DNA of 32,000 bases from Sulfolobus acidocaldarius DSM 639 (GTDB taxonomy: Archaea; Thermoproteota; Thermoprotei_A; Sulfolobales; Sulfolobaceae): NCBI RefSeq assembly GCF_000012285.1, contig NC_007181.1, positions 1,410,001 through 1,442,000 of the forward strand, in the 5' to 3' direction. The notes below the pieces were generated by a model, which saw nothing but the letters and a program-made list of their open reading frames with translations, was not told where the DNA came from and searched no databases. The translations under genes and the position numbers were made by a program. How positions within the stretch are numbered: the first letter of the stretch is position 1; each line of letters starts with the position of its first letter. Of this stretch, positions 1,899-32,000 are shown one piece after another.

Positions 1899-3230
1899 TT
1901 GGTTTATCTGAGGTATTACAAAGGTTTACTAATATCCGATGCTTATGCCCCAGGCTTAAAATGGGATGAGAAGTTACAGGGCTATATAAATTTCGCTTAT
2001 AAATATAGAGATGTAAAGAAATATTTTCTAACTGAGGGTATAGAAGTTGTTGAAAACGTACTTGATCCGTTACCATTCCCGTTGATAAGGGAGAAGTCGT
2101 TAGAGCTCAGAGACTATCAGATGGAAGCAGTCAAGTCTTGGCTTAAGAACGGAAAAAGGGGAATAGTGATCTTCCCCACGGGTGCAGGTAAAACTATGGT
2201 AGGAGTAAAAGCTATTGCGCTTTTGAAGGTGTCTACTCTAGTCGTAGTTCCAACAATAGACTTAATGAACCAATGGGTTAGTATTATAGAGAGGCATCTA
2301 GATACTGAGGTAGGATCTATAGGTGGAGGAAAAGATGACTTAAAGGGAATTACAGTAATAACCTATGATTCAGCATACACCAGGGCAGAGGAACTCGGTA
2401 ACAAGTTCCTTCTAATAATCTTTGACGAAGTTCATCACTTACCTTCAGAAGGGTATTCACTAATGGCTAAGATGTTTGCTTCACCATACAGGCTGGGTTT
2501 GACTGCAACTCCAGAAAGGGGGGACGGTAAGGAAGTTTTGTATCCAGAATTAGTAGGACCAATAGTTTACAAGAAGTCCTTAAAGGAGCTTTCAGGTAAG
2601 TATATAGCGGATTTTGAGATCATAAAAGAATATGTAGAGATGACCAGTGAGGAGAAAGAAAGGTATAAGGAGTTAAGAGGAAAATTAAAAGAATTTTTGA
2701 GTAGCAGAGGGATGAGATTGAACAGTTTAAATGACTTTTATAAATTAATCAGGTTAGCAAGCAAGGATAAGAAGGCTAGAGAGGCTTTATTGGCTTGGCA
2801 TGAGTCCTTAAGATTAGCTGTAAACAGCCGAGCTAAAATAGAGAAATTGAGAGAGCTCTTAAGGGAATTCCACGATAGGAAAATTATAGTTTTTACACGA
2901 GATACGGAATTAGCTTATGATATTAGCAAGGAATTTCTCATTCCTGTAGTGACATATAAGACTTCCAAGGACGAAAGATTTGAAATATTGAGTAAATTTA
3001 AGGAGGGCAACTATAGGGTGATCGTGGCATCCACTGTCTTTGATGAGGGGGTTGACATTCCAGATGCTGAAATTGCGATAATTATGGGCGGATATGGCAC
3101 AAAAAGGCAATTTATCCAGAGGCTCGGTAGGATATTAAGAGGTAGAGGCAAGAAGGCGTTGCTTATAGAGATAGTTACAAAGGGTACTGCGGACTATAGG
3201 TTAAGTAAAAGGAGAGAGTATAAATACTAA
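1899..3230 (+). CDS. xpb: XPB/Rad25-type SF2 DNA helicase
   Basis: Helicase motifs are present: PTGAGKT (I), FDEVHH (II), GLTATPER (III) and QRLGRILR (VI). An N-terminal damage-recognition-like domain is present and the gene is adjacent to bax1. TTG is the only in-frame start option. Confidence 0.9.
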   Translation: MVYLRYYKGLLISDAYAPGLKWDEKLQGYINFAYKYRDVKKYFLTEGIEVVENVLDPLPFPLIREKSLELRDYQMEAVKSWLKNGKRGIVIFPTGAGKTMVGVKAIALLKVSTLVVVPTIDLMNQWVSIIERHLDTEVGSIGGGKDDLKGITVITYDSAYTRAEELGNKFLLIIFDEVHHLPSEGYSLMAKMFASPYRLGLTATPERGDGKEVLYPELVGPIVYKKSLKELSGKYIADFEIIKEYVEMTSEEKERYKELRGKLKEFLSSRGMRLNSLNDFYKLIRLASKDKKAREALLAWHESLRLAVNSRAKIEKLRELLREFHDRKIIVFTRDTELAYDISKEFLIPVVTYKTSKDERFEILSKFKEGNYRVIVASTVFDEGVDIPDAEIAIIMGGYGTKRQFIQRLGRILRGRGKKALLIEIVTKGTADYRLSKRREYKY

Positions 3231-3329: not shown

Positions 3330-4172
3330 ATGAATAATATAATGATGGATTCAATAGATAAGAAGATACTGATTTACTTATTTAGAGATGGTAGAATTTC
3401 GCAAAGAAAGATCGCTGAAGAAGTGAAATTATCTGCTACCTCTCTTAATTATAGATTCAACAAATTAATAGAAGATGGAATAATAAAAAGCTTTAAAGTG
3501 CAGGTAAATCCTAATCTTTACGGAAAATATTATGGTTTTGTATCGTTCAAGAATTACAAGGATTTAGATTTTCAGTTCATCGATCTTAAAGTAAATTGTC
3601 TCGAAGATCTTAATGTTTACAGGTTAGTAGGAGATTCAACTGAGGATATTGAGGATAAGATATCTGTAATGAGCAAAGATCTAGGAGAGCCCCAAATGTC
3701 TTACATTCCACCACAGAACCCAATTATTCCTTCAGGTATAGACATAAAGATTGTCAAATCTGTTATAAAGAATCCAAGAATTGAAATAAGTGAAATAGCA
3801 AAAGACCTTAACTTACCTAGTAAGTCAGTCAACAGGAGAATAAATGTACTGACAAACAAAAATATGATAAGAATATATCCAATAGTTGACCTATCAAAGG
3901 CAGACTTAATAATGTTTGCCATATTTTCCAGTCACATAGATAGCCTAGATTTTCTAAAGACATGTAGCTTTACTTCTTTCAAAGATAATGGGAGGGGAAT
4001 AGTAATCTGTATTACTGAAAACATTAGGACAGCTGAGAATTACTTCAAGAACGTGAGAGATATAGACAGAGAAGCAGAAATAATGGTTACAACTAGCTAT
4101 GACATCAGAAATGAAGGTGCTCTGAGGGAATTAGAGAGGATCGAGTCTCAAACTTACTCTAAAGCCTTTTGA
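3330..4172 (+). CDS. Lrp/AsnC-family transcriptional regulator, tandem-duplicated (two HTH + RAM-like modules)
   Basis: The first module is DSIDKKILIYLFRDGRISQRKIAEEVKLSATSLNYRFNKLIEDGII. The second is IDIKIVKSVIKNPRIEISEIAKDLNLPSKSVNRRINVLTNKNMI. Each is followed by about 70 aa of beta/alpha-like sequence. The true start may be ATG 3342 or 3345 (MDSIDKK). Confidence 0.8.
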   Translation: MNNIMMDSIDKKILIYLFRDGRISQRKIAEEVKLSATSLNYRFNKLIEDGIIKSFKVQVNPNLYGKYYGFVSFKNYKDLDFQFIDLKVNCLEDLNVYRLVGDSTEDIEDKISVMSKDLGEPQMSYIPPQNPIIPSGIDIKIVKSVIKNPRIEISEIAKDLNLPSKSVNRRINVLTNKNMIRIYPIVDLSKADLIMFAIFSSHIDSLDFLKTCSFTSFKDNGRGIVICITENIRTAENYFKNVRDIDREAEIMVTTSYDIRNEGALRELERIESQTYSKAF

Positions 4173-4674
4173 CAAAGAAGTATGCTACATAGACTATTGT
4201 AGGGATAAAAGATATCCAAAATGCGATTGTAGGTTCTGACACAATTAGTAGTGATGCAGTTGTGTTACCTTGATGTATAGTAAATGTTTCTTGACCAAAA
4301 ATAACGAAAGGATAATTAGCATAGTTGGGCAGTGCAAACTTTAAGACTAAATATGTGAGTATTGGATCAATTATATAAAGTACGGGTAGCCACGCCATTG
4401 TTGTGTATTTGTACTCCTGCTTCTTTCTAAAAATGTATATCAGGGCATATACTATGTTAACTATGACATAAATTCTAAATGCAGTAAGTAAAATATTTAC
4501 TATATTTGCAATTATCACGTAAGAACCTAAGAACTCGACTCTTAAAAGGAATGGTGAATCATAGATATTTGCAATTCCCCCAGCACTATAATACCACCAA
4601 GATGTGGGAATAAGTGCAACTATAAGTGAAGAGATGTAGAACATAATGAGAGTCTTAAATCCCTTGAACATCAT
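4159..4674 (-). CDS. multi-pass membrane protein, function unknown
   Basis: 171 aa with about five hydrophobic segments. Its start overlaps the stop of the upstream gene by 4 nt (ATGA), indicating an operon. Confidence 0.55.
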   Translation of the reverse strand: MMFKGFKTLIMFYISSLIVALIPTSWWYYSAGGIANIYDSPFLLRVEFLGSYVIIANIVNILLTAFRIYVIVNIVYALIYIFRKKQEYKYTTMAWLPVLYIIDPILTYLVLKFALPNYANYPFVIFGQETFTIHQGNTTASLLIVSEPTIAFWISFIPTIVYVAYFFVKRL

Positions 4675-5075
4675 ATTTTCACCGTGGAAGTGAAGGTGGT
4701 GTTTGCTAGTCTCATATAAATAGTAACGTTCTCGTTCTGATTTTCAACGTTATGTAGGAATCCCTCAGAATTTGTTATGTATATGGTAAATGTTCTATTA
4801 GTATTGGGCATTATTGCAACCTCATGTTCAAATTTCATATATTGTCCTGTAACATTCTGTATTATCATAGTTAAATTGAAGGGGTTATGAACTGTTAGAT
4901 TGAGTTCATTATAACTGATAATTTTTACGCTGTAACTCAAAGAGGATGAACTCAACATACTTCGATATTCTTGAATCTGAGCTACTCCATTATTTATCGA
5001 CCCTTGTATCTGAAAAAACATGGTAATAATGAAAATAACAGCCGCAATTAGACCTGCTATTTTTCCATAATTCAT
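4671..5075 (-). CDS. N-terminally membrane-anchored extracellular protein, function unknown
   Basis: 134 aa with a single N-terminal hydrophobic helix (IAGLIAAVIFIITMFF). The rest is a beta-rich domain with several N-x-S/T sequons. It is translationally coupled to 4159..4674. Confidence 0.55.
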   Translation of the reverse strand: MNYGKIAGLIAAVIFIITMFFQIQGSINNGVAQIQEYRSMLSSSSLSYSVKIISYNELNLTVHNPFNLTMIIQNVTGQYMKFEHEVAIMPNTNRTFTIYITNSEGFLHNVENQNENVTIYMRLANTTFTSTVKI

Positions 5076-6679: not shown

Positions 6680-9600
6680 ATGTTTCCTGGCTTAGCTAAG
6701 TTTATCGTAAATAAATGGTATGTTATCCTAGCTTTATGGATAGTTGTCATACTTATTTCTGCTCCATTCACTTCACTATTTTTCAAATCAGTATCATATC
6801 AAGTGTCCATATCAGTACCTGGTAGTACAGCTGAAAAGGCTGAAAATATAATTTCCCAGGATTTTAAGATATCTGGTGCTGCAGGATCCAACGGGGTGCT
6901 AATAGTTGAGGGTAACTATTCTCAATACGCTGGATTTTTCGCGAATTTAACCAGCTATAAGAATATTTCAGTGATTTCTTTCTACACCATTGAAAAAGAT
7001 CTGCTGAACACAACTTTCTCCCAGTTAAGCCCTAGAGTAGACAATTTAACTAAAATTTTGCAAAACATCTCCTCTTCAGAGACGTCTTTAGAGAGCAAAC
7101 TGCAGACACAGAGGCAGAATATAACAGGTGATATAAATAAATTAATGCTTCTTAGAAACGCTACAATAAAAATAGAGAACTCTTTCATTAATATTTCATA
7201 CACTCTAAACTCTACCAAGGAGAAACTGGCTTTACTACACAGATCTATGGTAGAGAACTATACCACATTTGAAAATCTTAGAAAAGAGGAGCTAAACGTA
7301 AACTCCACTGCTACTAATATATCATATTTTCTTTATTATCCTGTAAGTTACTTTCTCGTTGCCTGGGAAGGTATCTATAATCAGACTCATAATACACAGT
7401 TAGCTAACCAGTATGCCTATAACCAAGTATACAATTCTTTATCAAGCCAGCAGGAAAAAGAGTACTTTAACTTATTTTACAGCTACTGGTCTTCAATACC
7501 TAATCCCCTTCCAAATTTACAGTATAATGCCCAAAAGTCTATTGAGAACGCAAGTGCAAAAATATTCAATTCAACTGAGTACCAATTTATTTCCTTCATG
7601 TTTAATTACATAAATATATCTAACTTTCTCAACAAGTCCTCTTATCAGACCTTTACAATAACCTATTTTGTTGAACTTTACCATGTTCCATATCAATTAG
7701 CCTACAGCCTACTTAATTACCCAGCTCTCCAAGTGCTGATAAGCATATATCATCAAAATACTGGCTTAAATGATTCGTTCCTGTTTGAGGTATTTAATTC
7801 TACTAACTTTAGTGAACTTGCATATCAGCTTATAACCTCAAATTTGAACACTTCAGAAAAAGAATTCGTCACTCAGGTTTACTTAAATCAAACTAAATCT
7901 CCAAACGAGTTTGCCGTTTCCTATATTTCTCAAGCCTATAATATATCTCAAACGACCATAAGTGATATTCTTAATTTCAACTCTACAGAGGATTACCTGA
8001 ATTACATTGCCCAACAAGCTTCAAATGAGAGCAAGATTCCTCAGTGGTTTTTCATTTCGCTCTACAAGTTTGGAAATATAACAAACCTAACCGCATACCT
8101 CATATCCACAAATCTAGGAAAGCTTCAGCCATTAATATCAAGTAGTAACCTAACTACGAACGAGTTTGCTCTCCTATTACAACAGAAAGATGTAAATTAC
8201 AGGCTACTTGCATCACAGCTTATAATAAATTATGCTAATTTCTCGCCAATACTTACGGTCAACAGAACACTATTAGTAAATGATATTGCAAGTAATGTAA
8301 GTTATTATGATGTCATAAAGTCTGGCAATTATCCCATATATCCTATACAGAACATAACTAAGAGCATTATAGGCAATAACTTACTGTTACTTTTCCTAAA
8401 GTCAGATGCAAAGAAAGGAAACGTTACGTACAACGAGTTAGTGCAATTTCAGCAGTACGTGAATAACTATACACACTTAAATACTGTCCTTACGGGCGGT
8501 GAACCAATTTCACATCAACTTAGTGGAATAGCTTCAACTGCATATTCAGTAGCTATTCCCGTTGGAATTGCCTTAGCTATTATTCTTGCAGGAGTTTACT
8601 TCAGATCTGTAATAGCTGCTTTCATGCCGCTTACGATATTTCTCTCAGCCTATCTCGTAGCGTCGGTGCTTCTGTATTTGGTCGCAATAAAACTTTTAGG
8701 TCTTCAGCTAAGTTTTCTGACCCCCAGCGAAGTCTTATTACTTGCTCTTGGTTTAGGTACAGACTATGTCGTCTTTATATCCAGTAGATATGTTGAAGAA
8801 AGAAAGAATGGTAGAGATCAACGTGATGCAGTTTATGATGCAGTAAGATGGGGAGGAAGAGCTGTTACCATAACTGCGTTTATTGTAATCTTGTCCTTCC
8901 TGTTTATATATATCTATAGAATACCATTCTTTTCTGACACTGCAATATCAAATATGGTTGGTGTCGTGATAGTATGGTTAGTCTCAATAACACTTTATCC
9001 TTCCATACTTAGAGTTGCGGGAGATAGGTTATTTTACCCAAGGAAATTCGGTAATAGCTTAAATGACGGTAAAAGGCAAGCAAAAGAGAAACCACTAATA
9101 GTAAGTAAGAAGCCCCTCATTATTGTTGGCGTTATAACAGCTATAGTTTTAATCTCTGCAATATATGCTGCCTCTACACCACTAACCTTAGATGTATTAT
9201 CATTGTTGCCAAGTTCACAAGCCACTTCAGGAGTTAGAATATTGAGTACTCAGTTCACATCTGCCAATATCTTCCCAATATATGTGGTTATACCGTATAA
9301 TAGCACATTTGATCAAAACGCCTACAACTTTACAGTCAGCTTATATAATAAGTTTATGAGTATTCCGGGAGTTACTAGTGTTAATTCACCTGTATCTCCA
9401 TATGGATACATTGTTAATTATAACCAGTTGAATAATTACAACTACACCCAGTATTTTTCAAATAACTACATATTATTTGAGATTAATCAGAAATATGATC
9501 CTTTCTCAACTCAGGCATTTAATGTAGTAAAACAGGTTGATAAAATAGTAGGAAATTCAGGTTATGTTGGTGGTGGACCTGTTGATGATTATAACATTTA

Positions 9601-10138
9601 CAGTTTCGTAGAGGGTAATTTTGGACTAATAGTTGTGGAAATTTCTGTAACCATGTTTGTCATATTGTGGATAATAACAAGAAGCCTTTCTGTTTCGGCT
9701 ACAATAATATTTGTAATTTTATCAGCAGTAGCAATAACGTTAGCCATTCAAAGGCTAATCTTCTCATCAATCTTAGGTTTCTCCATATTTGCAGTAGTTC
9801 CATTGTTCTTAGTAGCCATAATAATAGGTATTGGTATGGACTATAACATATTCCTGGTGGCTAGAATTCATGAAGAACTCGAAAAAGGTAATGACATGGG
9901 ATCTGCAGTGGAGGTTGCCGTAAGGAGACTATGGCTTACCATAGCGTTTCTTGGACTAATATTTGCGGGAACATTGGGATCACTAATGTTAGTTAATGCA
10001 CCAATACTTCAAGAACTAGGATTCGCATTTGCTATAGCGGCAATACTGGAGACAACCCTTTTATGGAGTCTGTTAGCTCCCTCCCTGTTACTATTACTAT
10101 ATAGGAAATTCAAGATAAGACCTAAGATGATTGTTTAG
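6680..10138 (+). CDS. MMPL/RND-superfamily membrane protein with greatly expanded first extracellular domain
   Basis: There are two transmembrane bundles, each with the MMPL motif ([17 protein letters not shown] and [17 protein letters not shown]). An N-terminal TM is followed by a roughly 570-aa N/S/T/Y/Q-rich loop carrying about 35 N-x-S/T sequons by eye. Confidence 0.8.
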
Positions 10139-14855: not shown

Positions 14856-16610
14856 TTATTTTCTCCTTAAGAGCAGGGCAACTACTCCTATCACTATGAT
14901 TATCACTATGACCGCTAATACAATATAGAATGTATTATTAGATGACTGAGAAGAGCTTTGAGGTGGTGTTGTGCTACTAGATCCAGAGTTAAGTGGAACT
15001 CCTGTACCGCTAGGTGTAGATTGAGTGCTGGAACTACTCGAATTAGTTTGAGAAGTACTTGAAGAGGAGGTTTGTGTATTAGACTGAGTTGTCGTCCCTG
15101 TTGAAGTCTGTTGAGGCTGACCATAAACCACATAGTAAGTTGTTGCAGGATCATCAAATACTACAACACTGCCGTTGACTATGAAGTAATTCTCTGAATT
15201 TAGTTCTATCCAACTTCCATTAACTTCCTTATATACAGCCACATTGCCTTGTCCACTTACACTAACGTTAAAGATTATGTATCCTGTCTTGTTCTGAATG
15301 TCTACCCTTTCAGCAGAATACTGAGATCCATTAATGTTCACATAAGTCTGTTGTACTGTTTTATTTACTACAGGTTTGACGCCTAAAGTTGAGTTAGCTG
15401 ATGTTAATACTATAACTTTTTCCGTGTTATTTATAGACAGGGAAGCCAAAATTCCCTCAAGCTGTTGATTTAGTACAACCTTGTGTGACAAATGTACGTC
15501 TGCAGTCGAAGAAACTTGACCACTTGCATTTGCGACTACAACTACTGTGTTATTTCCAATTTCAGTCTCGCCCACATACTGGGGGTGTTGAAGTGAATTA
15601 ACTCCTTTCACTGTAACTATCTTTAATTCTGTCATGTAGAGATTCAGGCTGTGTCTAGACACACCTAAGGACGAATACGCAGTACCATTTATACTGGCTA
15701 AGTGTACATAACCTATTACTGTTCCATTGACACCATAAAACTCTATGGTCTCGAAGTTAGTGTTTGCGTTAATAACCGAAGATAGTTCCACATTTAACAA
15801 GTTAATTCCAAATTTGATATTACCTAATCCCTCTCCTTTCCACACTAATGCAGGTACATATGTTCCATTGAAGTAGGCAATTGTTGCATTAACGCTATTA
15901 CTCTTTGCAGTCACAGAGGTATTTTCATTATAGCTCATGTTAAACTGAACAGGGGCATATCTTCTAGGTAAGTTGAATTGAACAGTTATTTTTCCCTGGC
16001 TCTCCTGTTGGATTGATGTGCTAATTAGTTCTCTCAAAACTACACTCACATGTTCTGTAACAGTTTCATTTGCCTTCACATTAAAGGTTAGTTGTGATAT
16101 TGATGTACCGTTGGCGAACTGTAATATCACGTTTCCAGAGCCATTTATGTATGCATGTGTATCAATAGTAGCGGTACCATTAGTTATTCCTGACCACACC
16201 AGTTGAGAATGAGATGAAGAGTTTACTATAACTCTGATGAGGTAAGGTATCTGACTATTTATGATAAGTTCCATGTCTGGTTTTGCTGTAATGCTTATGT
16301 TACCTGAATACGTTTTGTAAGTATCTGAAAACTCTAATAAATAAGAGGTTTCATTGTAAGTGATCCTTGTTGCGCCGTTAGTTTGGTTACTTAAAGTTGT
16401 GTTATATAGGGCTGAGGTTGCTATTAGAGATGTAAAAGTTGCGTTAGTGAGTAAACCTGTGTAGTTGGTGTTTATGTAAATACTTCCATATCTCTGATAC
16501 ATTATATTTAATGTTGTGTTATTGCTGGAAGGTGTTGCGTCTACACTCAGGGCTATTATACCCGCCAATGAAAAAAACAGAAGGGTTAGATATATTATGG
16601 CATTTTTCAT
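14856..16610 (-). CDS. secreted, C-terminally anchored surface glycoprotein, function unknown
   Basis: It has an N-terminal signal peptide (MKNAIIYLTLLFFSLAGIIALSVDA) and a beta-rich body with many N-x-S/T sequons. A roughly 70-aa Ser/Thr/Gln-rich stalk precedes a C-terminal TM helix ending in RRK. Confidence 0.7.
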   Translation of the reverse strand: MKNAIIYLTLLFFSLAGIIALSVDATPSSNNTTLNIMYQRYGSIYINTNYTGLLTNATFTSLIATSALYNTTLSNQTNGATRITYNETSYLLEFSDTYKTYSGNISITAKPDMELIINSQIPYLIRVIVNSSSHSQLVWSGITNGTATIDTHAYINGSGNVILQFANGTSISQLTFNVKANETVTEHVSVVLRELISTSIQQESQGKITVQFNLPRRYAPVQFNMSYNENTSVTAKSNSVNATIAYFNGTYVPALVWKGEGLGNIKFGINLLNVELSSVINANTNFETIEFYGVNGTVIGYVHLASINGTAYSSLGVSRHSLNLYMTELKIVTVKGVNSLQHPQYVGETEIGNNTVVVVANASGQVSSTADVHLSHKVVLNQQLEGILASLSINNTEKVIVLTSANSTLGVKPVVNKTVQQTYVNINGSQYSAERVDIQNKTGYIIFNVSVSGQGNVAVYKEVNGSWIELNSENYFIVNGSVVVFDDPATTYYVVYGQPQQTSTGTTTQSNTQTSSSSTSQTNSSSSSTQSTPSGTGVPLNSGSSSTTPPQSSSQSSNNTFYIVLAVIVIIIVIGVVALLLRRK

Positions 16611-23449: not shown

Positions 23450-23739
23450 CAATAACTCTGTAAAGGATTTGGATTAACCACATTAGGGCACGTAGCATTT
23501 ATGTTTAGTTATTCATAACTCTTAAGCTAAGTACTAATTAGAGAAAATATTTTTAGTATGTTAATAAAAATAATATTAGTATTTCGAAAAAGTACACAAT
23601 CTAAAAATAGTTCAGTTGTTCAAGTTTTTTAGTAAAATGTGCTAATATCAGTGTAAAAATAATTTTGCATAATGTTTATTAATATTCTCTGCATTATCTA
23701 CTAGAATTGAGGGATCTCGATATTAGAGAGGTATCAACA

Positions 23740-24384
23740 ATGATAAATGTGAAGAGGGTAGACCTTACTAAGGTTAGTGGTGAGATCAGATTCTTAGTGA
23801 TGAAGACATTACTAACCGCAAAACCCATAGTTGTGTTTAGGACCCATGAAAAAGGTAAAAAAATTATAGTGGAACTTTGTGAGATTTTAGACTTCCCCTA
23901 CAGAGAGGAGTTAGAGGAGGAAAAGGGGATATCGCTAATAGAGATTAAGAGAGAAATGGAGGTCTCTGATGCTATAACTGATAAAGTTAGTGTGATAGCC
24001 AATTTTAGTCCCTCAGGAATAGCCAATAGACTAACGAATCCTTCCATATTACTCTCTTTCATTCCTGAAATTCGAGGTATAAAGGACGTAAGTCCTAGTT
24101 ATTACTTCTTCACCGTGAATTGGCCTAATAAAATAACAGTCCCCTTTGTGTTACATAAGATCAAGGGTTACGGACCTAAATATATTATTAGGTATTTAGG
24201 GTATACTAAGTCATTAACACGTACATTTCTTTTAAAGATTGACTTTACAGTATCCAAAAATTCTAAGGGAAGCAAAATAGAGATGACGGAGAGTTACAAG
24301 GGCTCCTTCATGTTTCTAGCAGACGACAAAATAAAGAAACACATATCTCTATTTAAAGAGAAACTACATAGTATCCTGTTTTAG
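23740..24384 (+). CDS. hypothetical two-domain protein, paralogue A (Cys-less TusA-like N-domain plus SRPBCC/CoxG-like C-domain, tentative)
   Basis: It is a paralogue of 25511..26146, sharing MxNVKxVDLTKV, SFIPE, YIIRYxGY, FLLxIxF, MTExYK and KHxSLFxxKxxSxLF. ATG 23740 aligns with the paralogue's ATG and has GAGGT 8 nt upstream. The track start, TTG 23707, remains possible. Confidence 0.65.
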   Translation: MINVKRVDLTKVSGEIRFLVMKTLLTAKPIVVFRTHEKGKKIIVELCEILDFPYREELEEEKGISLIEIKREMEVSDAITDKVSVIANFSPSGIANRLTNPSILLSFIPEIRGIKDVSPSYYFFTVNWPNKITVPFVLHKIKGYGPKYIIRYLGYTKSLTRTFLLKIDFTVSKNSKGSKIEMTESYKGSFMFLADDKIKKHISLFKEKLHSILF

Positions 24385-25297: not shown

Positions 25298-25510
25298 TAC
25301 TAATATTTTCGCAAGCTAAGAGCTTTGATGAACACTTTTTAAAACATTTTTGATTGGTCTGCTTTTTATTAAATTATGTGTCAATAAGAAATACTCCTAA
25401 AGACTAGTGAAGAAGGAAATATCTTTAAAAATTAGCAAAACTTATATATCGTCTAATGTATACACTAAATACATAAAAATATCTTCACGAGATTGAAAGG
25501 TGTTCCTTTT

Positions 25511-26146
25511 ATGCTAAATGTGAAAGAGGTTGATCTGACAAAAGTTGATGGTGATAAGAGATTCGCTATACTTTCAGCTTTTTTGACTGTTAGACCAATT
25601 ATTCAGCTTAAAGCTGATGACGACGACAGTATAGTTAGAATATTTGAACTATGTCAGCTACTGAGTTATCCTTTTAAAGAGAGCGTAGGCGAGGACGGTG
25701 TGACCACTTTTGAGATTAGGAGGAAGAAAGATTTACCTAAAGACTTGCCCAGTTCTATGACAGACGTTACTGTACCATTTAAGCCTGAAAAGATTGCGTC
25801 CAAACTGGGAACTCCAACTATTCTCACCAGCTTTATACCTGAGTTAGTAAGTGTAAGAAGAGTAGCCCCAAAGTCATATATGTTTAAGATAAAGACTTAT
25901 GGAGAAATTCCCTTTGTAATTTATAAGGTAAAGACTCCAACCCCACGTTATATTATACGTTATTTTGGCTATGATACCAAGTTGTTCGGTCAGTTCTTGC
26001 TGAGAATTGAGTTCGTAATCTCTAAAGCTAAAGGCGGAAGTAGGGTTGTTATGACCGAAACGTATAAGAGAGCGTTTGGTGCTGAGGGCGCAATAAGAAA
26101 ACATTTGTCACTGTTTAGAGATAAGATGAGTTCAGTTCTTTTCTAA
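25511..26146 (+). CDS. hypothetical two-domain protein, paralogue B of 23740..24384
   Basis: It is roughly 35-40% identical to paralogue A by eye over its full length and has the same architecture. I prefer ATG 25511 from the paralogue alignment; the track start is TTG 25493. Confidence 0.65.
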   Translation: MLNVKEVDLTKVDGDKRFAILSAFLTVRPIIQLKADDDDSIVRIFELCQLLSYPFKESVGEDGVTTFEIRRKKDLPKDLPSSMTDVTVPFKPEKIASKLGTPTILTSFIPELVSVRRVAPKSYMFKIKTYGEIPFVIYKVKTPTPRYIIRYFGYDTKLFGQFLLRIEFVISKAKGGSRVVMTETYKRAFGAEGAIRKHLSLFRDKMSSVLF

Positions 26147-28090: not shown

Positions 28091-28096
28091 TTTTTT
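28091..28096 (+). terminator. T6 tract immediately after the S9 peptidase stop codon
   Basis: TAATTTTTTG. Oligo-T tracts act as archaeal termination signals. Confidence 0.35.
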
Positions 28097-28538
28097 GTAT
28101 CATGGATCATGTTCTCTAGACAACTGTATAGGTTTTGTACTCTCACTATAGACTAGTAGTAAGCGTAGAAAGATCTATCTACTTATCTCTCAATACCTAA
28201 ATCTGTTTAAAATATAAACGCAATAATCGTAGAACTATATCTACTAATTGTAGCTAAAAGGCTTTAAATATAGTGTTTTTACGTACACTACCTAGAGAGA
28301 TTTGTGGATATTTTTTATAAAATATTTTGTACTAAAAACGATATATCTATAATTATAATAATTACGTTTTATTATGTTTTTAAATATAAAAAGGTATCTA
28401 TAATTATATTTTTAAACGTTTACATTTCTTTATATTCATATCTCTTACAAATTTGTATAGATAATCTTCATCCTTTTCAAAACAATATAGTAAAGTATAA
28501 ATTTGACTTTAACAAAGTTATAATTTGCAAGACCAAGT

Positions 28539-29069
28539 ATGGACAATTCAGTAACCACATTCATACTGGTCATAGCTACAATATTCGTAGGAATAGCTAT
28601 ATTCGGGCTGTTTTCAGCTTACTACGGTATTAATGCAACTCAAATCAATCAAGTAAAGAACATTCAACAAATTGCTTCAGAATTCCAGGTAAGACTGATA
28701 GAGTCTCAAATAAGTAACTCAGAGACAAGCTTCATTGTTATACCTTATATACCTAACTATAAGGGTACGTTATATGTCTCAGGTTTTCTGATTTCTTCTC
28801 AATACGTAAATTCGCAACCAGTAGTTACACCAAATCTTGGTCAGGGATTTATAAACATTAATGGGACTTCACCTGTCTGTAGTGGTCTTGTTAATGTACA
28901 AACTGATTCAGACACAAGCCTATACTATGGTCAGATCTGTTTACAGCAAACTTTTCCAAATGCACCTCAAATAATATACCTTGCTACAGGTCAAAAGGCA
29001 ATATTATGGTTCTTAGTTTTCCAAAATAATCAGTATTACAGAATAGGTTACGTATTGTTATCTGGGTGA
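28539..29069 (+). CDS. small pilin/archaellin-like protein (P1): N-terminal hydrophobic helix plus beta-rich domain
   Basis: The N-terminus is MDNSVTTFILVIATIFVGIAIFGLFSAYYG. The remainder is N/S/T/Q/Y-rich. The C-terminal ILWFLVFQNNQYYRIGY is shared with P3. A stop 18 nt upstream fixes the ATG as the start. Its stop overlaps the next gene's start (GTGA). Confidence 0.6.
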   Translation: MDNSVTTFILVIATIFVGIAIFGLFSAYYGINATQINQVKNIQQIASEFQVRLIESQISNSETSFIVIPYIPNYKGTLYVSGFLISSQYVNSQPVVTPNLGQGFININGTSPVCSGLVNVQTDSDTSLYYGQICLQQTFPNAPQIIYLATGQKAILWFLVFQNNQYYRIGYVLLSG

Positions 29070-30871
29070 GAAATATGGGGTTTGTGAGAAGAATATCCAA
29101 GTTTAAAAAAGCCATCTCTCCTGCATTAGGAATGATTTTTGTCTTGATAATAATAGTAGCAGTTCTAATCCCATTATCAATTTTACTTTTTTCTGTTCCC
29201 ACATCTCAGCAAGTTGCAGCTCAGAACTCAAAGGCTGTGTCAAGTATAGCTCAACAAGAATTAAGCGAAATCGCAGTAATAGAGACTCCCTCACAGTTGC
29301 AATCCATAATAACTAGGAATACCCAGTTTTCATCGACTTCTCCTATATACTACGCATTAATGTACTACGTTAATAATACAGGATCATGGTTGTATATCGT
29401 TATTCTCCAAAATAACCCAAATGTAGTACTCAATATAACTTCGATTCTAGGACTTAACAGTAATGGTCAATGGGTTACAGTGAACAATGTCTTCCCTCAT
29501 TTACCTTTGTTAGCAAGTCCAAACACTCCTGGAACTAGTTTAGCCGGATATCCCGCATATTTGATTAGAATAGGCGGAAATTATGTGGAGTTGGCTGTCA
29601 TAACTCAGTTGGGAAACATTATAGCTGTACCCAAGTACGACGGTGGTTTATATCAACCCAATGGAATGTCAGCAATAATCTCATTGGATCCTAATAGTTT
29701 TCACGTTTTACAGAATCCTTCGTTAATTCTACTGGGCTCACCAAACCTCAGTAGCTTAATACAACAATACGGGAACACCTTAACGTTTTATGCCTTTGGA
29801 ATATTACCTAGTCAAAATAATTATATATCATGGTATTATGAGGGACCTATGTATATTCTACGTTCTTCAAAGCTATTTAACGGAAACATTAGTAACGCAG
29901 TAATGAGTTTAGCCCCAGGTTCAACAATGAGCGTTCAAAGTAATAATTGGAATATAAATATTACAGGAACTGCTAAGGTTCAATTATCTCAATTTACAGG
30001 TAAGGTACTATTTCCAAATGGAACGATTAAACAGTACAATGATTCTAGTCTTACAGTAGTGCTAAACAATCAAGCGGCATCAGTATTAGGTTCTGGGCAA
30101 ATCTCAGTAACAAATACTCAAGTTTTAAACGTAACCAAGTTAACGGGAAATATAGAGAATGCAATAGTTTACTTATCAGGAAATGTACAGCCTGGTTTTA
30201 CATTCTTCACTGGGTATATGAATGGGACATTGCTAAGCAATATCGCAATTCCAATTATAAACGATCTACCCACTGGCCTGGTTTTACCATTAATCACATT
30301 GCTCTCAAGTACAATAGACGGACTATCTAATTTAGGAACCCTCTTATCTTCCTTAATAGAAGGAGTATCAGGATTGGGAAATTCTGCAGTGTCTTCTTTA
30401 CTACCTCCAATTATAATATCTGCAGAGAAGGTGACGGGTGTTAACATCATCTATTTAGCTGCAGTGACTCCTGAAATAATAACCTTAAAAGGCGTAGTAT
30501 ACAATCCTACTTCGCAGTTACTATACATTAATTATACATATATCATGCTTCAGGAATACGATACATTGAGCGGTGTTGGTGGACCAACAACACTAGGGCA
30601 AATAGTTGGTATGGTTCAAGTGCCTGTCAATATGTATGTTTACCCTGGTACATATCAAGACATAGATCTGAAGGTAGGGATACCATTGACCTTACCAAAT
30701 GTCTTGCTAAATAATTTACTATCAAATAGTGACAATCAAGGACCAGCAACTCTGACCTTGTCTTCAACTTATAGAGTATTAACCATAGAGACTTATACAA
30801 ACATGGGGCTCATATCGTCAGGTCAGTTTATATTACCTTCTACTCAGCCACCTGTTTCGCTCCCAGATTAG
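29066..30871 (+). CDS. large (about 600 aa) extracellular protein with class III (prepilin-like) signal peptide (P2)
   Basis: MGFVRRISKFKKA|ISPALGMIFVLIIIVAVLIPLSILLF combines a basic leader, a small residue at -1 and a hydrophobic helix, as in PibD substrates. Many N-x-S/T sequons follow. The start is GTG 29066 or ATG 29075. Confidence 0.7.
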   Translation: MRNMGFVRRISKFKKAISPALGMIFVLIIIVAVLIPLSILLFSVPTSQQVAAQNSKAVSSIAQQELSEIAVIETPSQLQSIITRNTQFSSTSPIYYALMYYVNNTGSWLYIVILQNNPNVVLNITSILGLNSNGQWVTVNNVFPHLPLLASPNTPGTSLAGYPAYLIRIGGNYVELAVITQLGNIIAVPKYDGGLYQPNGMSAIISLDPNSFHVLQNPSLILLGSPNLSSLIQQYGNTLTFYAFGILPSQNNYISWYYEGPMYILRSSKLFNGNISNAVMSLAPGSTMSVQSNNWNINITGTAKVQLSQFTGKVLFPNGTIKQYNDSSLTVVLNNQAASVLGSGQISVTNTQVLNVTKLTGNIENAIVYLSGNVQPGFTFFTGYMNGTLLSNIAIPIINDLPTGLVLPLITLLSSTIDGLSNLGTLLSSLIEGVSGLGNSAVSSLLPPIIISAEKVTGVNIIYLAAVTPEIITLKGVVYNPTSQLLYINYTYIMLQEYDTLSGVGGPTTLGQIVGMVQVPVNMYVYPGTYQDIDLKVGIPLTLPNVLLNNLLSNSDNQGPATLTLSSTYRVLTIETYTNMGLISSGQFILPSTQPPVSLPD

Positions 30872-30898
30872 TTTTTAAACAAACTATTTTTTCTTTTT
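30872..30898 (+). terminator. T-rich tract (T5 then TTTTTTCTTTTT) after the P2 stop
   Basis: Read directly from the sequence. It lies in a convergent intergenic region. Confidence 0.3.
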
Positions 30899-30944
30899 CT
30901 CCATTCAATGGCTTTCATTCTTCCTCTCTATTCGTCCTCTATAT

Positions 30945-31511
30945 CTATGGGCTTTGAGGTACAGTTGTATAAGTATATACTATTCTAAACCAATAGTTGT
31001 TTACTTTATATATAATCCACACTACTAAATCTTGGTTACTAGAGACTCCATTATATATTATTGTAAATGGAGAATTAAAGGAGACCGTGTAGACCTGTAG
31101 CTTAGAAGGGGAATAAATTACTGACCCTCCTACGTCATATATACTCCCTGATATAGTGGTGGTGTTAGCTCGTTTATTGTTTGTCAAGTAAACTTGATAA
31201 TTCAGTGAAGAAGTAGACGGTGTAACTACTCCTACACTGGGCTGTAGTGATGCAGGTATTGTAAACGCTACTACCTCAATACTACCGTTAACGCTGGGGT
31301 TATAAACTTCTGCCACTACACTTCCTACAGTGTTATTTATAAGTAGAGGTCCCACAGACAGAGAAGTGGAACCAGCTATTTGGTTAGCTTGTTGCTGTGA
31401 TATTGAAAATACCTCTTTTGGTAAGAAGTAAGCGAATGAGAATGCTAGAAGTGCAATCCCAATACCTACTACAGCAATAATCAGTATTAATTGAGGAATT
31501 ACTGACTCCAT
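30945..31511 (-). CDS. small pilin/archaellin-like protein (P3), paralogue of P1
   Basis: The N-terminus is MESVIPQLILIIAVVGIGIALLAFSFAYFL. VVTPS and the C-terminal VVWIIYKVNNYWFRIVY align with P1. TTATATAT on the minus strand lies 26 nt upstream of the ATG. Confidence 0.6.
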   Translation of the reverse strand: MESVIPQLILIIAVVGIGIALLAFSFAYFLPKEVFSISQQQANQIAGSTSLSVGPLLINNTVGSVVAEVYNPSVNGSIEVVAFTIPASLQPSVGVVTPSTSSLNYQVYLTNNKRANTTTISGSIYDVGGSVIYSPSKLQVYTVSFNSPFTIIYNGVSSNQDLVVWIIYKVNNYWFRIVYTYTTVPQSP

Positions 31512-31592
31512 TGTTTAACAACTATAATCGACAATATATAAGTTTTTCAGAGGAATCGAAAGATATAAAACTGTCTTATACAATTTTAGAAT
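31512..31592. promoter_or_regulatory. divergent promoter region for P3 and P4
   Basis: ATATATAA (31534-31541, minus-strand TATA) is centred 26.5 nt from the P3 ATG. ATATAAAA (31563-31570) is centred 26.5 nt from the P4 GTG. This is a symmetric geometry for two leaderless transcripts. Confidence 0.45.
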
Positions 31593-32000
31593 GTGCCTAC
31601 TGTAGTAGCTACATTCATATTAGTCGTAGCTGTATTCTTGATATCTATCATAGTCTTCTTCTATTACGCAGGATACTTGGGTTTACTTTCTCCATCAATC
31701 TTAAACCAAGAGTACCTTATAGGTCTATCTAAATCTATACAGATAAGTGTCTCTAGTGTAGCATTTAAAGGTGTCTCACCAAACCTGATTAGCTTTAACG
31801 TTAGCTATTTAATCACAGTTAACTCTCCTACTAAAGTCCTCACAGTTGTCCCCTTTGTGACCTTAAATTCGCCTAGCATATTTTACTCTCAACCATCAAC
31901 AAAACAAAATGCAATAATTGCAAAAGCCAACTCAACAGGATATATTCCCCTTAAAAACTTCAAGATAAACGGACCTGTATATATACCACAACAGAGTATG
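31593..32000 (+). CDS. small pilin/archaellin-like protein (P4), 3'-truncated by the window edge; not in the ORF track
   Basis: The GTG start lies just after an in-frame TAG (31587-31589, one codon between them). There are 136 codons open to nt 32000. The N-terminus (M)PTVVATFILVVAVFLISIIVFFYYAGY matches the P1 VTTFILVIA motif. This reading replaces the implausible track ORF 31511..31732, which is in another frame. Confidence 0.5.
   Translation, partial: MPTVVATFILVVAVFLISIIVFFYYAGYLGLLSPSILNQEYLIGLSKSIQISVSSVAFKGVSPNLISFNVSYLITVNSPTKVLTVVPFVTLNSPSIFYSQPSTKQNAIIAKANSTGYIPLKNFKINGPVYIPQQSM

What the first reader, a model, noticed from the sequence alone, without database searches (positions are those of the whole stretch)
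28539..32000. Orphan cluster of at least four type-IV-pilin-like genes with no assembly machinery in view
Four adjacent genes encode proteins built like archaeal type IV pilins or archaellin-fold proteins: an N-terminal hydrophobic helix followed by a sequon-rich, beta-rich extracellular domain. P2 has a textbook class III signal peptide (KKA|ISPALGMIFVLIIIVAVLI). P1, P3 and P4 are paralogues, sharing V[TA]TFILV[IV]A at the N-terminus, and P1 and P3 also share a W-x4-NN-x3-RI-x-Y C-terminus. P1 and P2 are translationally coupled, and P3 and P4 diverge from an 81-bp promoter. No FlaI/PilB-type ATPase or FlaJ/PilC-type platform gene lies within the window. From memory, the characterised Sulfolobus filament systems (archaellum, Ups, Aap) all carry those genes in cis. 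This could be an undescribed surface filament or pseudopilus module served by an ATPase elsewhere, or the start of a locus that continues past nt 32000.
Basis: partly seen in the sequence, partly recalled or inferred. Interest (0 to 1): 0.7.

Follow-up and report, generated by a model that had tools for sequence, protein, structure and literature searches.

The report
Orphan pilin-like gene cluster in Sulfolobus
The window ends inside a seven-gene cluster of Sulfolobus acidocaldarius (Saci_1680-1687) that encodes two uncharacterised families of pilin-like surface proteins, one carrying a sugar-binding-type domain; they most likely form an adhesive accessory (minor-pilin) complex for a pilus whose motor is encoded elsewhere.

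Summary
The genes exist at the stated coordinates. The window is S. acidocaldarius DSM 639, and P1-P4 are Saci_1680-1683. The locus continues past nt 32000 with three more pilin-like genes (P5-P7, Saci_1684-1687). No ATPase or platform gene lies within 10 kb in any of nine related loci.

There are two protein families. Family B (P2, P5, P6, P7) has a conserved class III signal motif, [KR][GA]|[LIQ][SA]; P2's KAIS is the same as UpsA's. A P7 model shows a helix plus an Ig-like head. Family A (P1, P3, P4) has no charged leader, so it does not fit the prepilin definition. Its N-terminus lies in register with mature AapB-type pilins. A P4 model shows a helix, a beta-sandwich and a ConA-like lectin domain; its best PDB match is the modular minor pilin PilC of Streptococcus sanguinis.

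P1+P2 is a separate cassette, conserved alone in four other genera. P4-P7 is the second conserved module. The whole family is confined to Sulfolobales.

A published deletion of saci_1676-1686 is hyper-archaellated, like an Aap-less mutant.

Best reading: a trans-served minor-pilin/adhesin set, with UpsC as precedent. This is a new variant of a known kind.

The parts
28091..28538 (+). AT-rich intergenic region upstream of P1 (GC about 0.31), with a TATA-like box (AGTATAAATTT, 28494-28504) about 35-45 nt before the ATG. Presumed P1-P2 promoter.
   Evidence: Promoter assignment is inferred from sequence only. The sigma-70 scan is not applicable to archaea and was at background.
28539..29069 (+). 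P1 = Saci_1680, 176 aa. Family A, small form: leaderless N-terminal hydrophobic helix plus a beta-rich domain ending in W-x5-NN-x3-RI-x-Y.
   Evidence: Orthologues sit directly next to P2-like genes in Sulfuracidifex (36% id, E 5e-23), Acidianus infernus and Ca. Aramenus.
29066..30871 (+). P2 = Saci_1681, 601 aa (GTG) or 598 aa (ATG 29075). Family B, large form: class III-type signal KKA|IS, a helix with conserved Pro (LIP), the N-domain shared with P5/P6/P7, and a long C-terminal extension that varies by indels between strains.
   Evidence: Full-length orthologue in Sulfuracidifex tepidarius (30% id, E 2e-49). Only remnants are left in strain SUSAZ.
30945..31511 (-). P3 = Saci_1682, 188 aa. 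Family A, small form. Orthologue in S. tokodaii (49% id) heads the P5-P6-P7 operon there.
31512..31592 (.). 81-bp divergent intergenic region between P3 and P4, with an A/T-rich TATA-like element about 25-30 nt upstream of each start codon. This layout suggests near-leaderless transcripts.
   Evidence: sequence read directly. Function is inferred.
31593..32000 (+). First 136 codons of P4 = Saci_1683. Full length is 460 aa, ending at window-equivalent position 32975. Family A, long form: leaderless helix 4-48, beta-sandwich 50-187, ConA-like lectin jelly-roll 196-460.
   Evidence: P5 (Saci_1684, frameshifted in DSM 639), P6 (Saci_1686) and P7 (Saci_1687) follow beyond the window.

Best explanation
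The region is the first half of a seven-gene cluster (Saci_1680-1687) encoding Sulfolobales-specific, extracellular, pilin-like proteins of two families.

[quoted passage not shown] They are probably inserted by Sec and cut by PibD after [KR][GA]. That would leave an N-terminal helix that can be extracted from the membrane into a type IV filament.

Family A (P1, P3, P4) are 'leaderless pilins'. Their translated N-terminus already corresponds to a mature pilin N-terminus, so they would need no peptidase. P4 also carries a ConA-like lectin domain.

I propose that A and B subunits associate through their N-terminal helices into a low-abundance minor-pilin complex: P1+P2 as one pair and P4+P5+P6+P7 (with or without P3) as a second set. 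This complex would sit at the tip (or base) of a type IV pilus built by an ATPase, platform and PibD encoded elsewhere. The bulky heads would keep the subunits out of the shaft, and the lectin domain would provide adhesion to glycans. The Aap adhesion pilus is the most likely partner.

Shown: gene structure, the two families, the signal motif and its conservation, the predicted folds, the phyletic range, the absence of machinery in cis, and the strain-level decay.

Inferred: PibD cleavage, the A-B complex, incorporation into a pilus, which pilus, and glycan binding.
For: - Class III motif. Nearly all complete N-termini among the 94 family-B clusters found in 1.84 billion proteins start with a short basic leader ending [KR][GA] followed by [LIQ][SA], a ~30-residue hydrophobic stretch and a conserved Pro. 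P2, P6 and P7 read KAIS, KAIS and RAIS. UpsA, UpsB and AapA/B read KAIS, KGIS and RALS.
- Independent pipelines labelled homologues 'Type IV pilin' and 'pseudopilin PulG'.
- P7 model (pLDDT 82): helix 3-34 plus an Ig-like sandwich. A full-length alignment to the Pyrobaculum type IV pilin 8fk7 appears among otherwise Ig-domain hits.
- P4 model (pLDDT 81): a 45-residue N-terminal helix, a sandwich and a lectin jelly-roll. The top PDB hit is the modular minor pilin PilC of S. sanguinis (E 7e-6), followed by LamG, galectin and CBM40 domains. A family-B homologue in another lineage carries a faint Laminin_G_3 hit.
- Family A N-termini have no K/R in 30 of 32 sequences; of the other two, P0077's come from an upstream extension of the called ORF. 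They align residue 3 to residue 3 with mature Aap-type pilins: [LF]IL[VI][IV]A at positions 8-13 in P1, P3, P4 and AapB. One P4-like protein (P0081) has MRG|IS in the same register.
- A-type and B-type genes are always adjacent. P5 and P6 are fused in four clusters.
- No T2SSE/T2SSF gene lies within 10 kb in nine contexts, and the flanks differ between species.
- Precedent: UpsC is an orphan, large minor pilin cleaved by PibD.
- Deletion of saci_1676-1686 gives a hyper-archaellated strain. Its filament preparations are described as archaella plus threads. Deletion of aapF also causes hyper-archaellation.
Against: - No Pfam, NCBIfam or PDB sequence match to any pilin family. The pilin fold matches are weak: P7 has no hit below E 0.01, and the family A match to 8fk7 or 6nav has E 0.2-3.
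- P1, P3 and P4 fail the defining class III motif.
- The MW2106 deletion also removes Saci_1676, Trm10 (Saci_1677), Saci_1678 and the S9 peptidase. The paper gives no rationale and no statement that Aap is absent. One methods sentence even mentions MW2106 2D classes as templates for picking Aap.
- P5 is frameshifted in DSM 639, the parent of strains that make abundant Aap. So at least P5 is dispensable for Aap.
- P4, P5 and P2 are independently disrupted in natural strains.
- Co-occurrence with aap, ups or arl across genomes could not be tested.
Confidence: 0.5

Rival explanations
1. A filament-independent envelope complex. The proteins stay anchored in the membrane, or form a short pseudo-periplasmic stalk, by their N-terminal helices. 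The P4 lectin domain would bind S-layer or neighbouring-cell glycans. This would be analogous to ArlF/ArlG, which are archaellin-derived proteins that link the archaellum to the S-layer. No dedicated ATPase would be needed.
For: - Family A has an uncleaved-type N-terminus.
- No machinery lies in cis in nine contexts.
- There is a lectin-like domain.
- ArlG/ArlF are described as periplasmic filaments capped by an S-layer binder (supplement text of PMC11607397).
- A change in envelope or S-layer coupling could also alter archaellation.
Against: - The class III cleavage motif is strictly conserved across family B. That is hard to explain if the helices never leave the membrane.
- There is no sequence or fold match to FlaF/FlaG.
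- The genes are not linked to the arl operon.
Confidence: 0.25
2. A so-far unseen fifth surface filament or pseudopilus. One of the small subunits (P7, P3 or P1) would be the major subunit, assembled by a borrowed ATPase and platform.
For: - There are small pilin-sized members (P7 160 aa, P1 176 aa, P3 188 aa) alongside large ones.
- The module is conserved across genera.
Against: - Cryo-EM surveys of S. acidocaldarius filaments report four types (archaella, Aap, Ups, threads) and identify their subunits. None is a cluster member (PMC11607397, PMC9715654).
- P5 is a frameshift fragment in the laboratory strain.
- P7 heads are no more conserved than minor subunits.
Confidence: 0.1
3. The hyper-archaellation of the published deletion, and hence any link to pili, is caused by the co-deleted genes. 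These are the paralogous unknown proteins Saci_1676 and Saci_1678, Trm10 or the S9 peptidase. The pilin-like cluster would be a dispensable, decaying set of surface adhesins or virus-receptor decoys with no role in filament assembly.
For: - The deletion spans ten genes.
- There are independent disruptions of P2, P4 and P5 in natural strains, and P1 is lost and P2 reduced to remnants in SUSAZ.
- Trm10 lies next to the module in a distant metagenomic lineage too.
Against: - Intact orthologues of all module members are maintained across several Sulfolobales genera, with conserved signal motifs and domain order.
- An out-of-frame P5 allele coexists with an allele restored by a compensating change in the adjacent homopolymer. 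That argues for selection to keep the frame at least in some lineages.
Confidence: 0.15

Closest known systems
UpsC (Saci_1302), minor pilin of the UV-inducible Ups pilus of S. acidocaldarius (PMC11823120)
   Same: It has a class III signal peptide, an unusually large glycosylated head (49 kDa) and is Sulfolobales-specific. It is encoded away from its ATPase/platform operon and is proposed to sit at the tip like GspK.
   Different: UpsC is a single gene in the UV/TFB3 regulon with demonstrated PibD cleavage and an aggregation phenotype. Here there are seven genes from two families, one of them leaderless, and one member carries a lectin domain.
PilC (with PilA and PilB), modular minor pilins of Streptococcus sanguinis type IV pili (PDB 7OA8/7OA7)
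   Same: The architecture is a pilin module with a ConA-like lectin module grafted on its C-terminus. It is the top structural match of the P4 model.
   Different: These are bacterial proteins with a canonical prepilin leader. The match has low TM-score (0.21-0.25) and rests mostly on the lectin module. It indicates analogy of design, not demonstrated homology.
Core minor (pseudo)pilin sets of bacterial T2SS/T4P (GspH-I-J-K; FimU-PilV-W-X)
   Same: They are sets of four or so pilin-like genes in one operon, include one oversized subunit, form a tip or priming complex, and can be encoded apart from the ATPase.
   Different: There is no sequence or fold relationship. All bacterial members have leaders. 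Here, half the set lacks one.
ArlF/ArlG (FlaF/FlaG) of the archaellum
   Same: They are pilin- or archaellin-derived beta-sandwich proteins with an N-terminal helix that is not processed as a class III signal. They act in the pseudo-periplasm and bind the S-layer.
   Different: They are encoded inside the arl operon. They gave no detectable sequence or structural match to family A.
Orphan pilin genes of other archaea (H. volcanii PilA1-6; M. maripaludis EpdD/EpdE)
   Same: They are pilin genes unlinked to the assembly genes and served in trans (PMC4371748).
   Different: Those are small canonical prepilins that can form the shaft. They are not multi-domain sets with a leaderless partner family.

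Membership tests
Archaeal type IV prepilin / class III signal peptide protein (PibD substrate) | A short basic leader ending [KR][GA], then a small or hydrophobic +1/+2 residue and a hydrophobic stretch of at least 20 residues at the extreme N-terminus | tested here: met
   Met for P2 (KKA|ISPALG...), P6 (KA|IS), P7 (RA|IS) and nearly all complete N-termini of the 94 family-B clusters. These are the same tetrapeptides as UpsA, UpsB and AapA/B. S. acidocaldarius P5 is atypical (SIG|LS), but its orthologues read RG|IS or RG|LS.
Archaeal type IV prepilin / class III signal peptide protein (PibD substrate) | The same leader and cleavage motif, tested in P1, P3 and P4 | tested here: not met
   The N-termini are MDNSV.., MESVI.., MPTVV.. 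with no K/R. The ORFs cannot be extended upstream. No K/R is seen in 30 of 32 family-A sequences; of the other two, P0077's come from an upstream extension of the called ORF and P0081 starts MRG|IS.
Archaeal type IV prepilin / class III signal peptide protein (PibD substrate) | 'Lollipop' fold: a long N-terminal alpha-helix followed by a beta-sandwich head | tested here: met
   AF2 models: P4 has helix 4-48 plus a sandwich at 50-187 (pLDDT 81). P7 has helix 3-34 plus an Ig-like sandwich (pLDDT 82). P1-P3 were not modelled; the fold is inferred by homology.
Archaeal type IV prepilin / class III signal peptide protein (PibD substrate) | Match to curated pilin N-terminal models (Pfam Pilin_N, NCBIfam archaeal flagellin N-terminal-like) or to solved pilins | tested here: not met
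   No Pfam or NCBIfam hit at E<=1. PDB sequence and fold matches to pilins are only at E 0.04-3.
Archaeal type IV prepilin / class III signal peptide protein (PibD substrate) | Cleavage by PibD and incorporation into a filament assembled by an ATPase and a platform protein | not testable with these tools
   This needs a cleavage assay, N-terminal mass spectrometry and localisation. No ATPase or platform lies in cis.
Minor-pilin tip/priming set (functional class) | Several co-transcribed pilin-like genes including oversized subunits or an adhesin module, at low abundance relative to a major pilin | tested here: inconclusive
   Gene organisation, the sizes (160-601 aa) and the lectin module fit. 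Abundance, localisation and dependence of any pilus on them are unknown. The only genetic datum is the ten-gene deletion MW2106.
ArlF/ArlG-like stator/anchor proteins | Archaellin-fold soluble domain, location in the arl operon, S-layer binding | tested here: not met
   There is no sequence or fold match and the genes are not in an arl operon. S-layer binding is untested.
Thread-type (donor-strand) filament subunits (Saci_0406 family) | A Sec/SPI-cleaved signal, an N-terminal donor beta-strand, no pilin helix, PibD independence | tested here: not met
   The models have a long N-terminal helix, not a donor strand. Family B has class III rather than SPI motifs. The thread locus is Saci_0404-0409.
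Bindosome-type class III substrate-binding proteins | A class III signal fused to an ABC-transporter solute-binding domain, next to an ABC transporter | tested here: not met
   No SBP domain is found in any member. An ABC-2 transporter lies upstream of the P1-P2 cassette in two related loci only.

The most novel reading that the evidence does not exclude
Sulfolobales possess a previously undescribed class of 'leaderless pilins' (family A). Their primary translation product mimics a PibD-processed pilin. They pair obligatorily with class III-signal partners (family B) to build lectin-tipped complexes on a type IV pilus made by machinery encoded elsewhere. Loss of this complex flips the cell from the adhesive (Aap) state to the swimming (hyper-archaellated) state. 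This would be a new component, and a new route of subunit entry, for archaeal type IV filaments.
Probability: 0.25. Interest if true: 0.75.

Novelty: new variant of a known kind. Interest (0 to 1): 0.6.

Why it matters
Minor pilins and tip adhesins decide what a type IV pilus binds and whether it assembles, yet in archaea almost none are known. AapA and UpsC are the only candidates in Sulfolobus. Most of the ~20 predicted PibD substrates of S. acidocaldarius have no assigned role (PMC4371748).

This cluster accounts for four of those substrates and adds a partner family that needs no peptidase. It also offers a concrete candidate (the P4 lectin domain) for glycan-mediated adhesion.

It may explain why a strain already used for cryo-EM (MW2106) is hyper-archaellated. 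That makes the Aap/archaellum cross-talk directly testable with single-gene deletions in an established genetic system.

The strain-to-strain on/off variation of P2, P4 and P5 suggests selection on surface exposure, for example by pilus-binding viruses.

Tried and rejected
- Pfam and NCBIfam scans of P1-P7 and orthologues found only noise.
- PDB sequence searches with P4 and with the family A and B profiles gave nothing significant.
- Profile-profile comparison of family A against family B showed no homology beyond the hydrophobic helix (probability 6%). I therefore treat them as two families.
- A word-indexed homologue search with P3 found only S. tokodaii. A profile that included the hydrophobic helix was swamped by hydrophobic words and missed the queries themselves. 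Removing the helix fixed this.
- The genome-collection scan used a narrow pattern and returned only two loci. No phyletic profile against aap, ups or arl was possible.
- Viral-contig scans with the P4-like and P7-like profiles found no relatives, so a viral origin is rejected.
- Hypervariability test, DSM 639 against SUSAZ: cluster proteins are 81-95% identical and the flanks 81-98%, so there is nothing exceptional.
- There are no internal repeats that would explain the P2 deletions.
- Expression: the iModulon supplement lists the genes only in its gene table. The nutrient-limitation and Makarova supplements have no entry.
- The 'Thermopsin' name on a UniRef entry for the P5 fragment is not supported by Pfam.
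- Look-ups of P0147 and P0175 found no record.

Full report
**Identity of the window.** P1, P2 and P3 are found exactly in Sulfolobus acidocaldarius genomes. The gene table in the supplement of PMC8578740 puts the S9 peptidase Saci_1679 at 1436333-1438090 and Saci_1680 at 1438539-1439069 of NC_007181.1. The window therefore equals DSM 639 positions 1410001-1442000. The assignments are P1 = Saci_1680, P2 = Saci_1681, P3 = Saci_1682, P4 = Saci_1683, P5 = Saci_1684 (a fragment), P6 = Saci_1686 and P7 = Saci_1687.

**Checking the observation.** P2 can start at GTG 29066, overlapping the P1 stop by 4 nt, or at ATG 29075, which is the GenBank choice and gives 598 aa. The P3/P4 gap is 81 bp and has TATA-like A/T boxes about 25-30 nt from each start. 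BLASTP confirms that P1, P3 and the first ~185 residues of P4 are paralogues (E 5e-13 to 5e-10).

Two motif details are slightly off. V[TA]TFILV[IV]A fits P1 and P4 only, and the C-terminal motif has x5, not x4. Sequon counts in P1-P3 (2, 10, 3) equal the shuffled expectation. By contrast, two true surface glycoproteins in the window exceed expectation more than two-fold. What does mark P1-P3 as extracellular is composition: 6-7% charged residues, against 25-33% in the cytoplasmic proteins of the window, and about 40% N/S/T/Q/Y. Each protein has one strong hydrophobic segment, at the N-terminus. No ATPase or platform family is found anywhere in the window.

**Beyond the window.** Fetching the same locus from other strains shows that P4 is 460 aa. 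It is followed by P5 (561 aa), P6 (468 aa) and P7 (160 aa). After those come a DUF998 protein, a polytopic membrane protein, an alcohol dehydrogenase and an M19 peptidase. The locus does continue, but with more pilin-like genes and without machinery.

**Two families.** All-against-all BLASTP splits the seven proteins into family A (P1, P3, the N-domain of P4) and family B (P2, P5, P6, P7). Family B shares an N-terminal domain of about 150 residues, and P7 is that domain alone. A profile-profile comparison finds no A-B homology beyond the helix.

**Family B.** An exhaustive HMM search of 1.84 billion cluster representatives finds only 94 clusters at E<=1e-3. Every one that carries an organism name is from Sulfolobales: Sulfuracidifex, Acidianus, Metallosphaera, Ca. 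Aramenus and Sulfolobaceae MAGs. Nearly all complete N-termini read as follows: a short basic leader, [KR][GA], then [LIQ][SA], then a ~30-residue hydrophobic stretch with a conserved Pro. The published FlaFind sites of S. acidocaldarius pilins are KAIS (UpsA), KGIS (UpsB) and RALS (AapA/B) (PMC4371748). P2 and P6 read KAIS and P7 reads RAIS.

The AF2 model of P7 (pLDDT 82) is a helix (3-34) plus an Ig-like sandwich. Foldseek finds generic Ig domains at E about 0.01 and, at rank 45, a full-length alignment to the Pyrobaculum type IV pilin 8fk7. This is consistent with an archaeal pilin but is not proof.

**Family A.** The N-termini (MDNSV.., MESVI.., MPTVV..) are the first possible starts after a stop codon. 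They carry no K/R in 30 of 32 sequences; of the other two, P0077's come from an upstream extension of the called ORF. The exception, P0081, is a P4-like protein that begins MRG|ISTPVIALIL, a class III leader in the same register.

P1's N-terminus aligns residue 3 to residue 3 with the mature S. islandicus pilin 6NAV. S. acidocaldarius AapB (8Q30) has LILVIA at positions 8-13, where P1, P4 and P3 have FILVIA, FILVVA and LILIIA. The E-values (3; 0.23 for the profile against 8fk7) are not significant, so this is a lead. Taken together, it suggests that family A proteins are pilin derivatives that are made 'already processed'.

The AF2 model of P4 (26-sequence alignment, pLDDT 81) has a 45-residue helix, a beta-sandwich (50-187) and a jelly-roll (196-460). 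The top PDB match is PilC, the modular minor pilin of Streptococcus sanguinis, which is a pilin module plus a ConA-like lectin (E 7e-6). It is followed by neurexin LNS/LamG, galectins and CBM40. A family-B protein in a distant metagenomic module has a faint Laminin_G_3 hit. A lectin-type domain therefore recurs in the system.

**Two modules.** In S. tokodaii the arrangement is P4-like, then divergently P3-like, P5-like, P6-like and P7-like. In Sulfolobales archaeon Acd1 it is P4-like, then divergently P5, P6 and P7. Neither has P1 or P2.

Conversely, a P1-like gene abuts a P2-like gene, alone, in Sulfuracidifex tepidarius, Acidianus infernus and twice in Ca. Aramenus. Orthology is supported by BLASTP: P1 36% identity, E 5e-23; P2 30% over full length, E 2e-49. 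In strain SUSAZ, P1 is gone and P2 is reduced to recognisable remnants, while P3-P7 are intact.

P5 and P6 are fused into proteins of about 1030 aa in four clusters. These keep an internal class III motif preceded by a short hydrophobic segment. That arrangement argues for a physical P5-P6 partnership. Each module pairs family A with family B.

Flanking genes differ in every genus. None of nine contexts has a T2SSE or T2SSF gene within 10 kb. No relatives occur in viral contigs.

**Population variation.**
- P2 occurs in at least 16 length variants (371-601 aa) caused by deletions in its 3' half.
- P4 is split in some strains by an 8-bp tandem duplication in the linker before the lectin domain.
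- P5 carries a frameshift in an A6/C5 homopolymer pair: (A6,C5) and (A7,C4) are in frame, and (A6,C4) is out of frame.
- DSM 639 has the P5 fragment.
- Divergence from SUSAZ is unremarkable: 81-95% identity against 81-98% for the flanks.

The cluster is therefore dispensable in culture and is repeatedly switched off or lost.

**Literature.** I found no paper that discusses these genes' function. Three items matter.
- UpsC (Saci_1302) is a 49-kDa class III pilin encoded outside the ups operon. It is cleaved by PibD, needed for aggregation and proposed to be a GspK-like tip subunit (PMC11823120). This removes the premise that Sulfolobus pilins are always in cis with their machinery.
- Gaines et al. 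2024 built MW2106, a 'deletion of saci_1676-saci_1686 in MW001', and used it as a 'hyper-archaellated strain'. Filaments isolated from it are described as archaella and threads. Aap was taken from other strains (PMC11607397). No rationale is given.
- Deleting the Aap platform gene aapF also gives hyper-archaellated, hypermotile cells (PMC6396743 citing Henche 2012).

The MW2106 phenotype therefore looks like loss of Aap. However, the deletion also removes Saci_1676, Trm10, Saci_1678 and the S9 peptidase, so the link is suggestive only.

**Interpretation.** The most economical reading is a trans-served minor-pilin/adhesin set. Family B subunits would be cut by PibD. Family A subunits would enter without cutting. 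The helices would bundle, the big heads would exclude the subunits from the shaft, and the P4 lectin domain would give glycan adhesion. The partner machine is most likely Aap.

I give this 0.5 confidence. Within it, Aap as the partner gets about 0.3. The rivals are a filament-independent envelope or S-layer-anchoring complex in the manner of ArlF/ArlG (0.25), an unseen fifth filament (0.1), and a dispensable decaying adhesin set whose apparent phenotype comes from co-deleted genes (0.15).

**Novelty.** Orphan and large minor pilins are known (UpsC, GspK, S. sanguinis PilC). A leaderless pilin-like family obligatorily paired with class III partners, and this two-module system, appear undescribed. 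The existence of MW2106 shows that specialists have already targeted the locus. I rate it a new variant of a known kind, with interest 0.6.

Noticed in passing
beyond window; L001-L004 around L002:8102 (P5 = Saci_1684): The P5 reading frame depends on two adjacent homopolymers. (A6,C5) and (A7,C4) are in frame and (A6,C4) is out of frame. So one strain has a frameshift and another carries a compensating change. This looks like on/off switching or repeated loss and repair.
   Followed up: partly
P0086, P0087, P0088, P0091 (about 1014-1034 aa); L016:616-3720: In four 50%-identity clusters P5 and P6 are one polypeptide. A short hydrophobic segment, a basic stretch and a second, internal class III motif ([KR][GA]|[LIQ][ST]) join them. 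This implies a helical hairpin and possibly internal PibD cleavage.
   Followed up: partly
window 23707-24384 (+) and 25493-26146 (+): Saci_1676 and Saci_1678 are paralogous, charged, apparently cytoplasmic proteins of unknown family that flank Trm10 (Saci_1677). Both are removed in the hyper-archaellated deletion strain MW2106. Trm10 is also adjacent to the pilin-like module in a distant metagenomic contig (L017).
   Followed up: partly
window 29066-30871: The P2 ORF is intact in the window. However, the RefSeq-based gene table of DSM 639 lists only a 3' fragment (SACI_RS11695, 1440431-1440871) and an antisense ORF (SACI_RS11690) there. P2 is therefore missing from transcriptome analyses built on that annotation.
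   Followed up: no
window 14856-16610 (-): A 584-aa protein with no Pfam match. It has an N-terminal Sec-type signal, 31 N-glycosylation sequons (13.5 expected by shuffling), a C-terminal Ser/Thr-rich stalk and a C-terminal membrane anchor. This is the typical build of a Sulfolobus surface glycoprotein.
   Followed up: no
window 6680-10138 (+): An MMPL-family membrane protein of 1152 aa with 38 sequons (14.7 expected). This implies large glycosylated extracellular loops.
   Followed up: no
window 429-1865 (-) and 1899-3230 (+): A divergent pair of a DUF790 (Bax1-type nuclease) gene and an XPB helicase gene. This is the known archaeal XPB-Bax1 arrangement.
   Followed up: no
L010:5102-8110 and L014:6574-9463: In Sulfuracidifex and one Ca. 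Aramenus locus the P1-P2 cassette lies just downstream of the same gene set: an HTH protein, a ~290-aa protein, an ABC ATPase and an ABC-2/DUF2705 permease. This set is not present next to the cassette in S. acidocaldarius or A. infernus.
   Followed up: no
L015:8494-9356 (strain SUSAZ): Between the S9 peptidase and P3, SUSAZ keeps two recognisable pieces of P2 coding sequence. They are separated by unrelated GC-richer sequence, which may be a small inserted element that accompanied the loss of P1-P2.
   Followed up: no
window 4159-5075 (-): Two small overlapping genes. One is a 134-aa N-terminally anchored protein with 6 sequons. The other is a 171-aa polytopic membrane protein. Neither has an assignment.
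   Followed up: no
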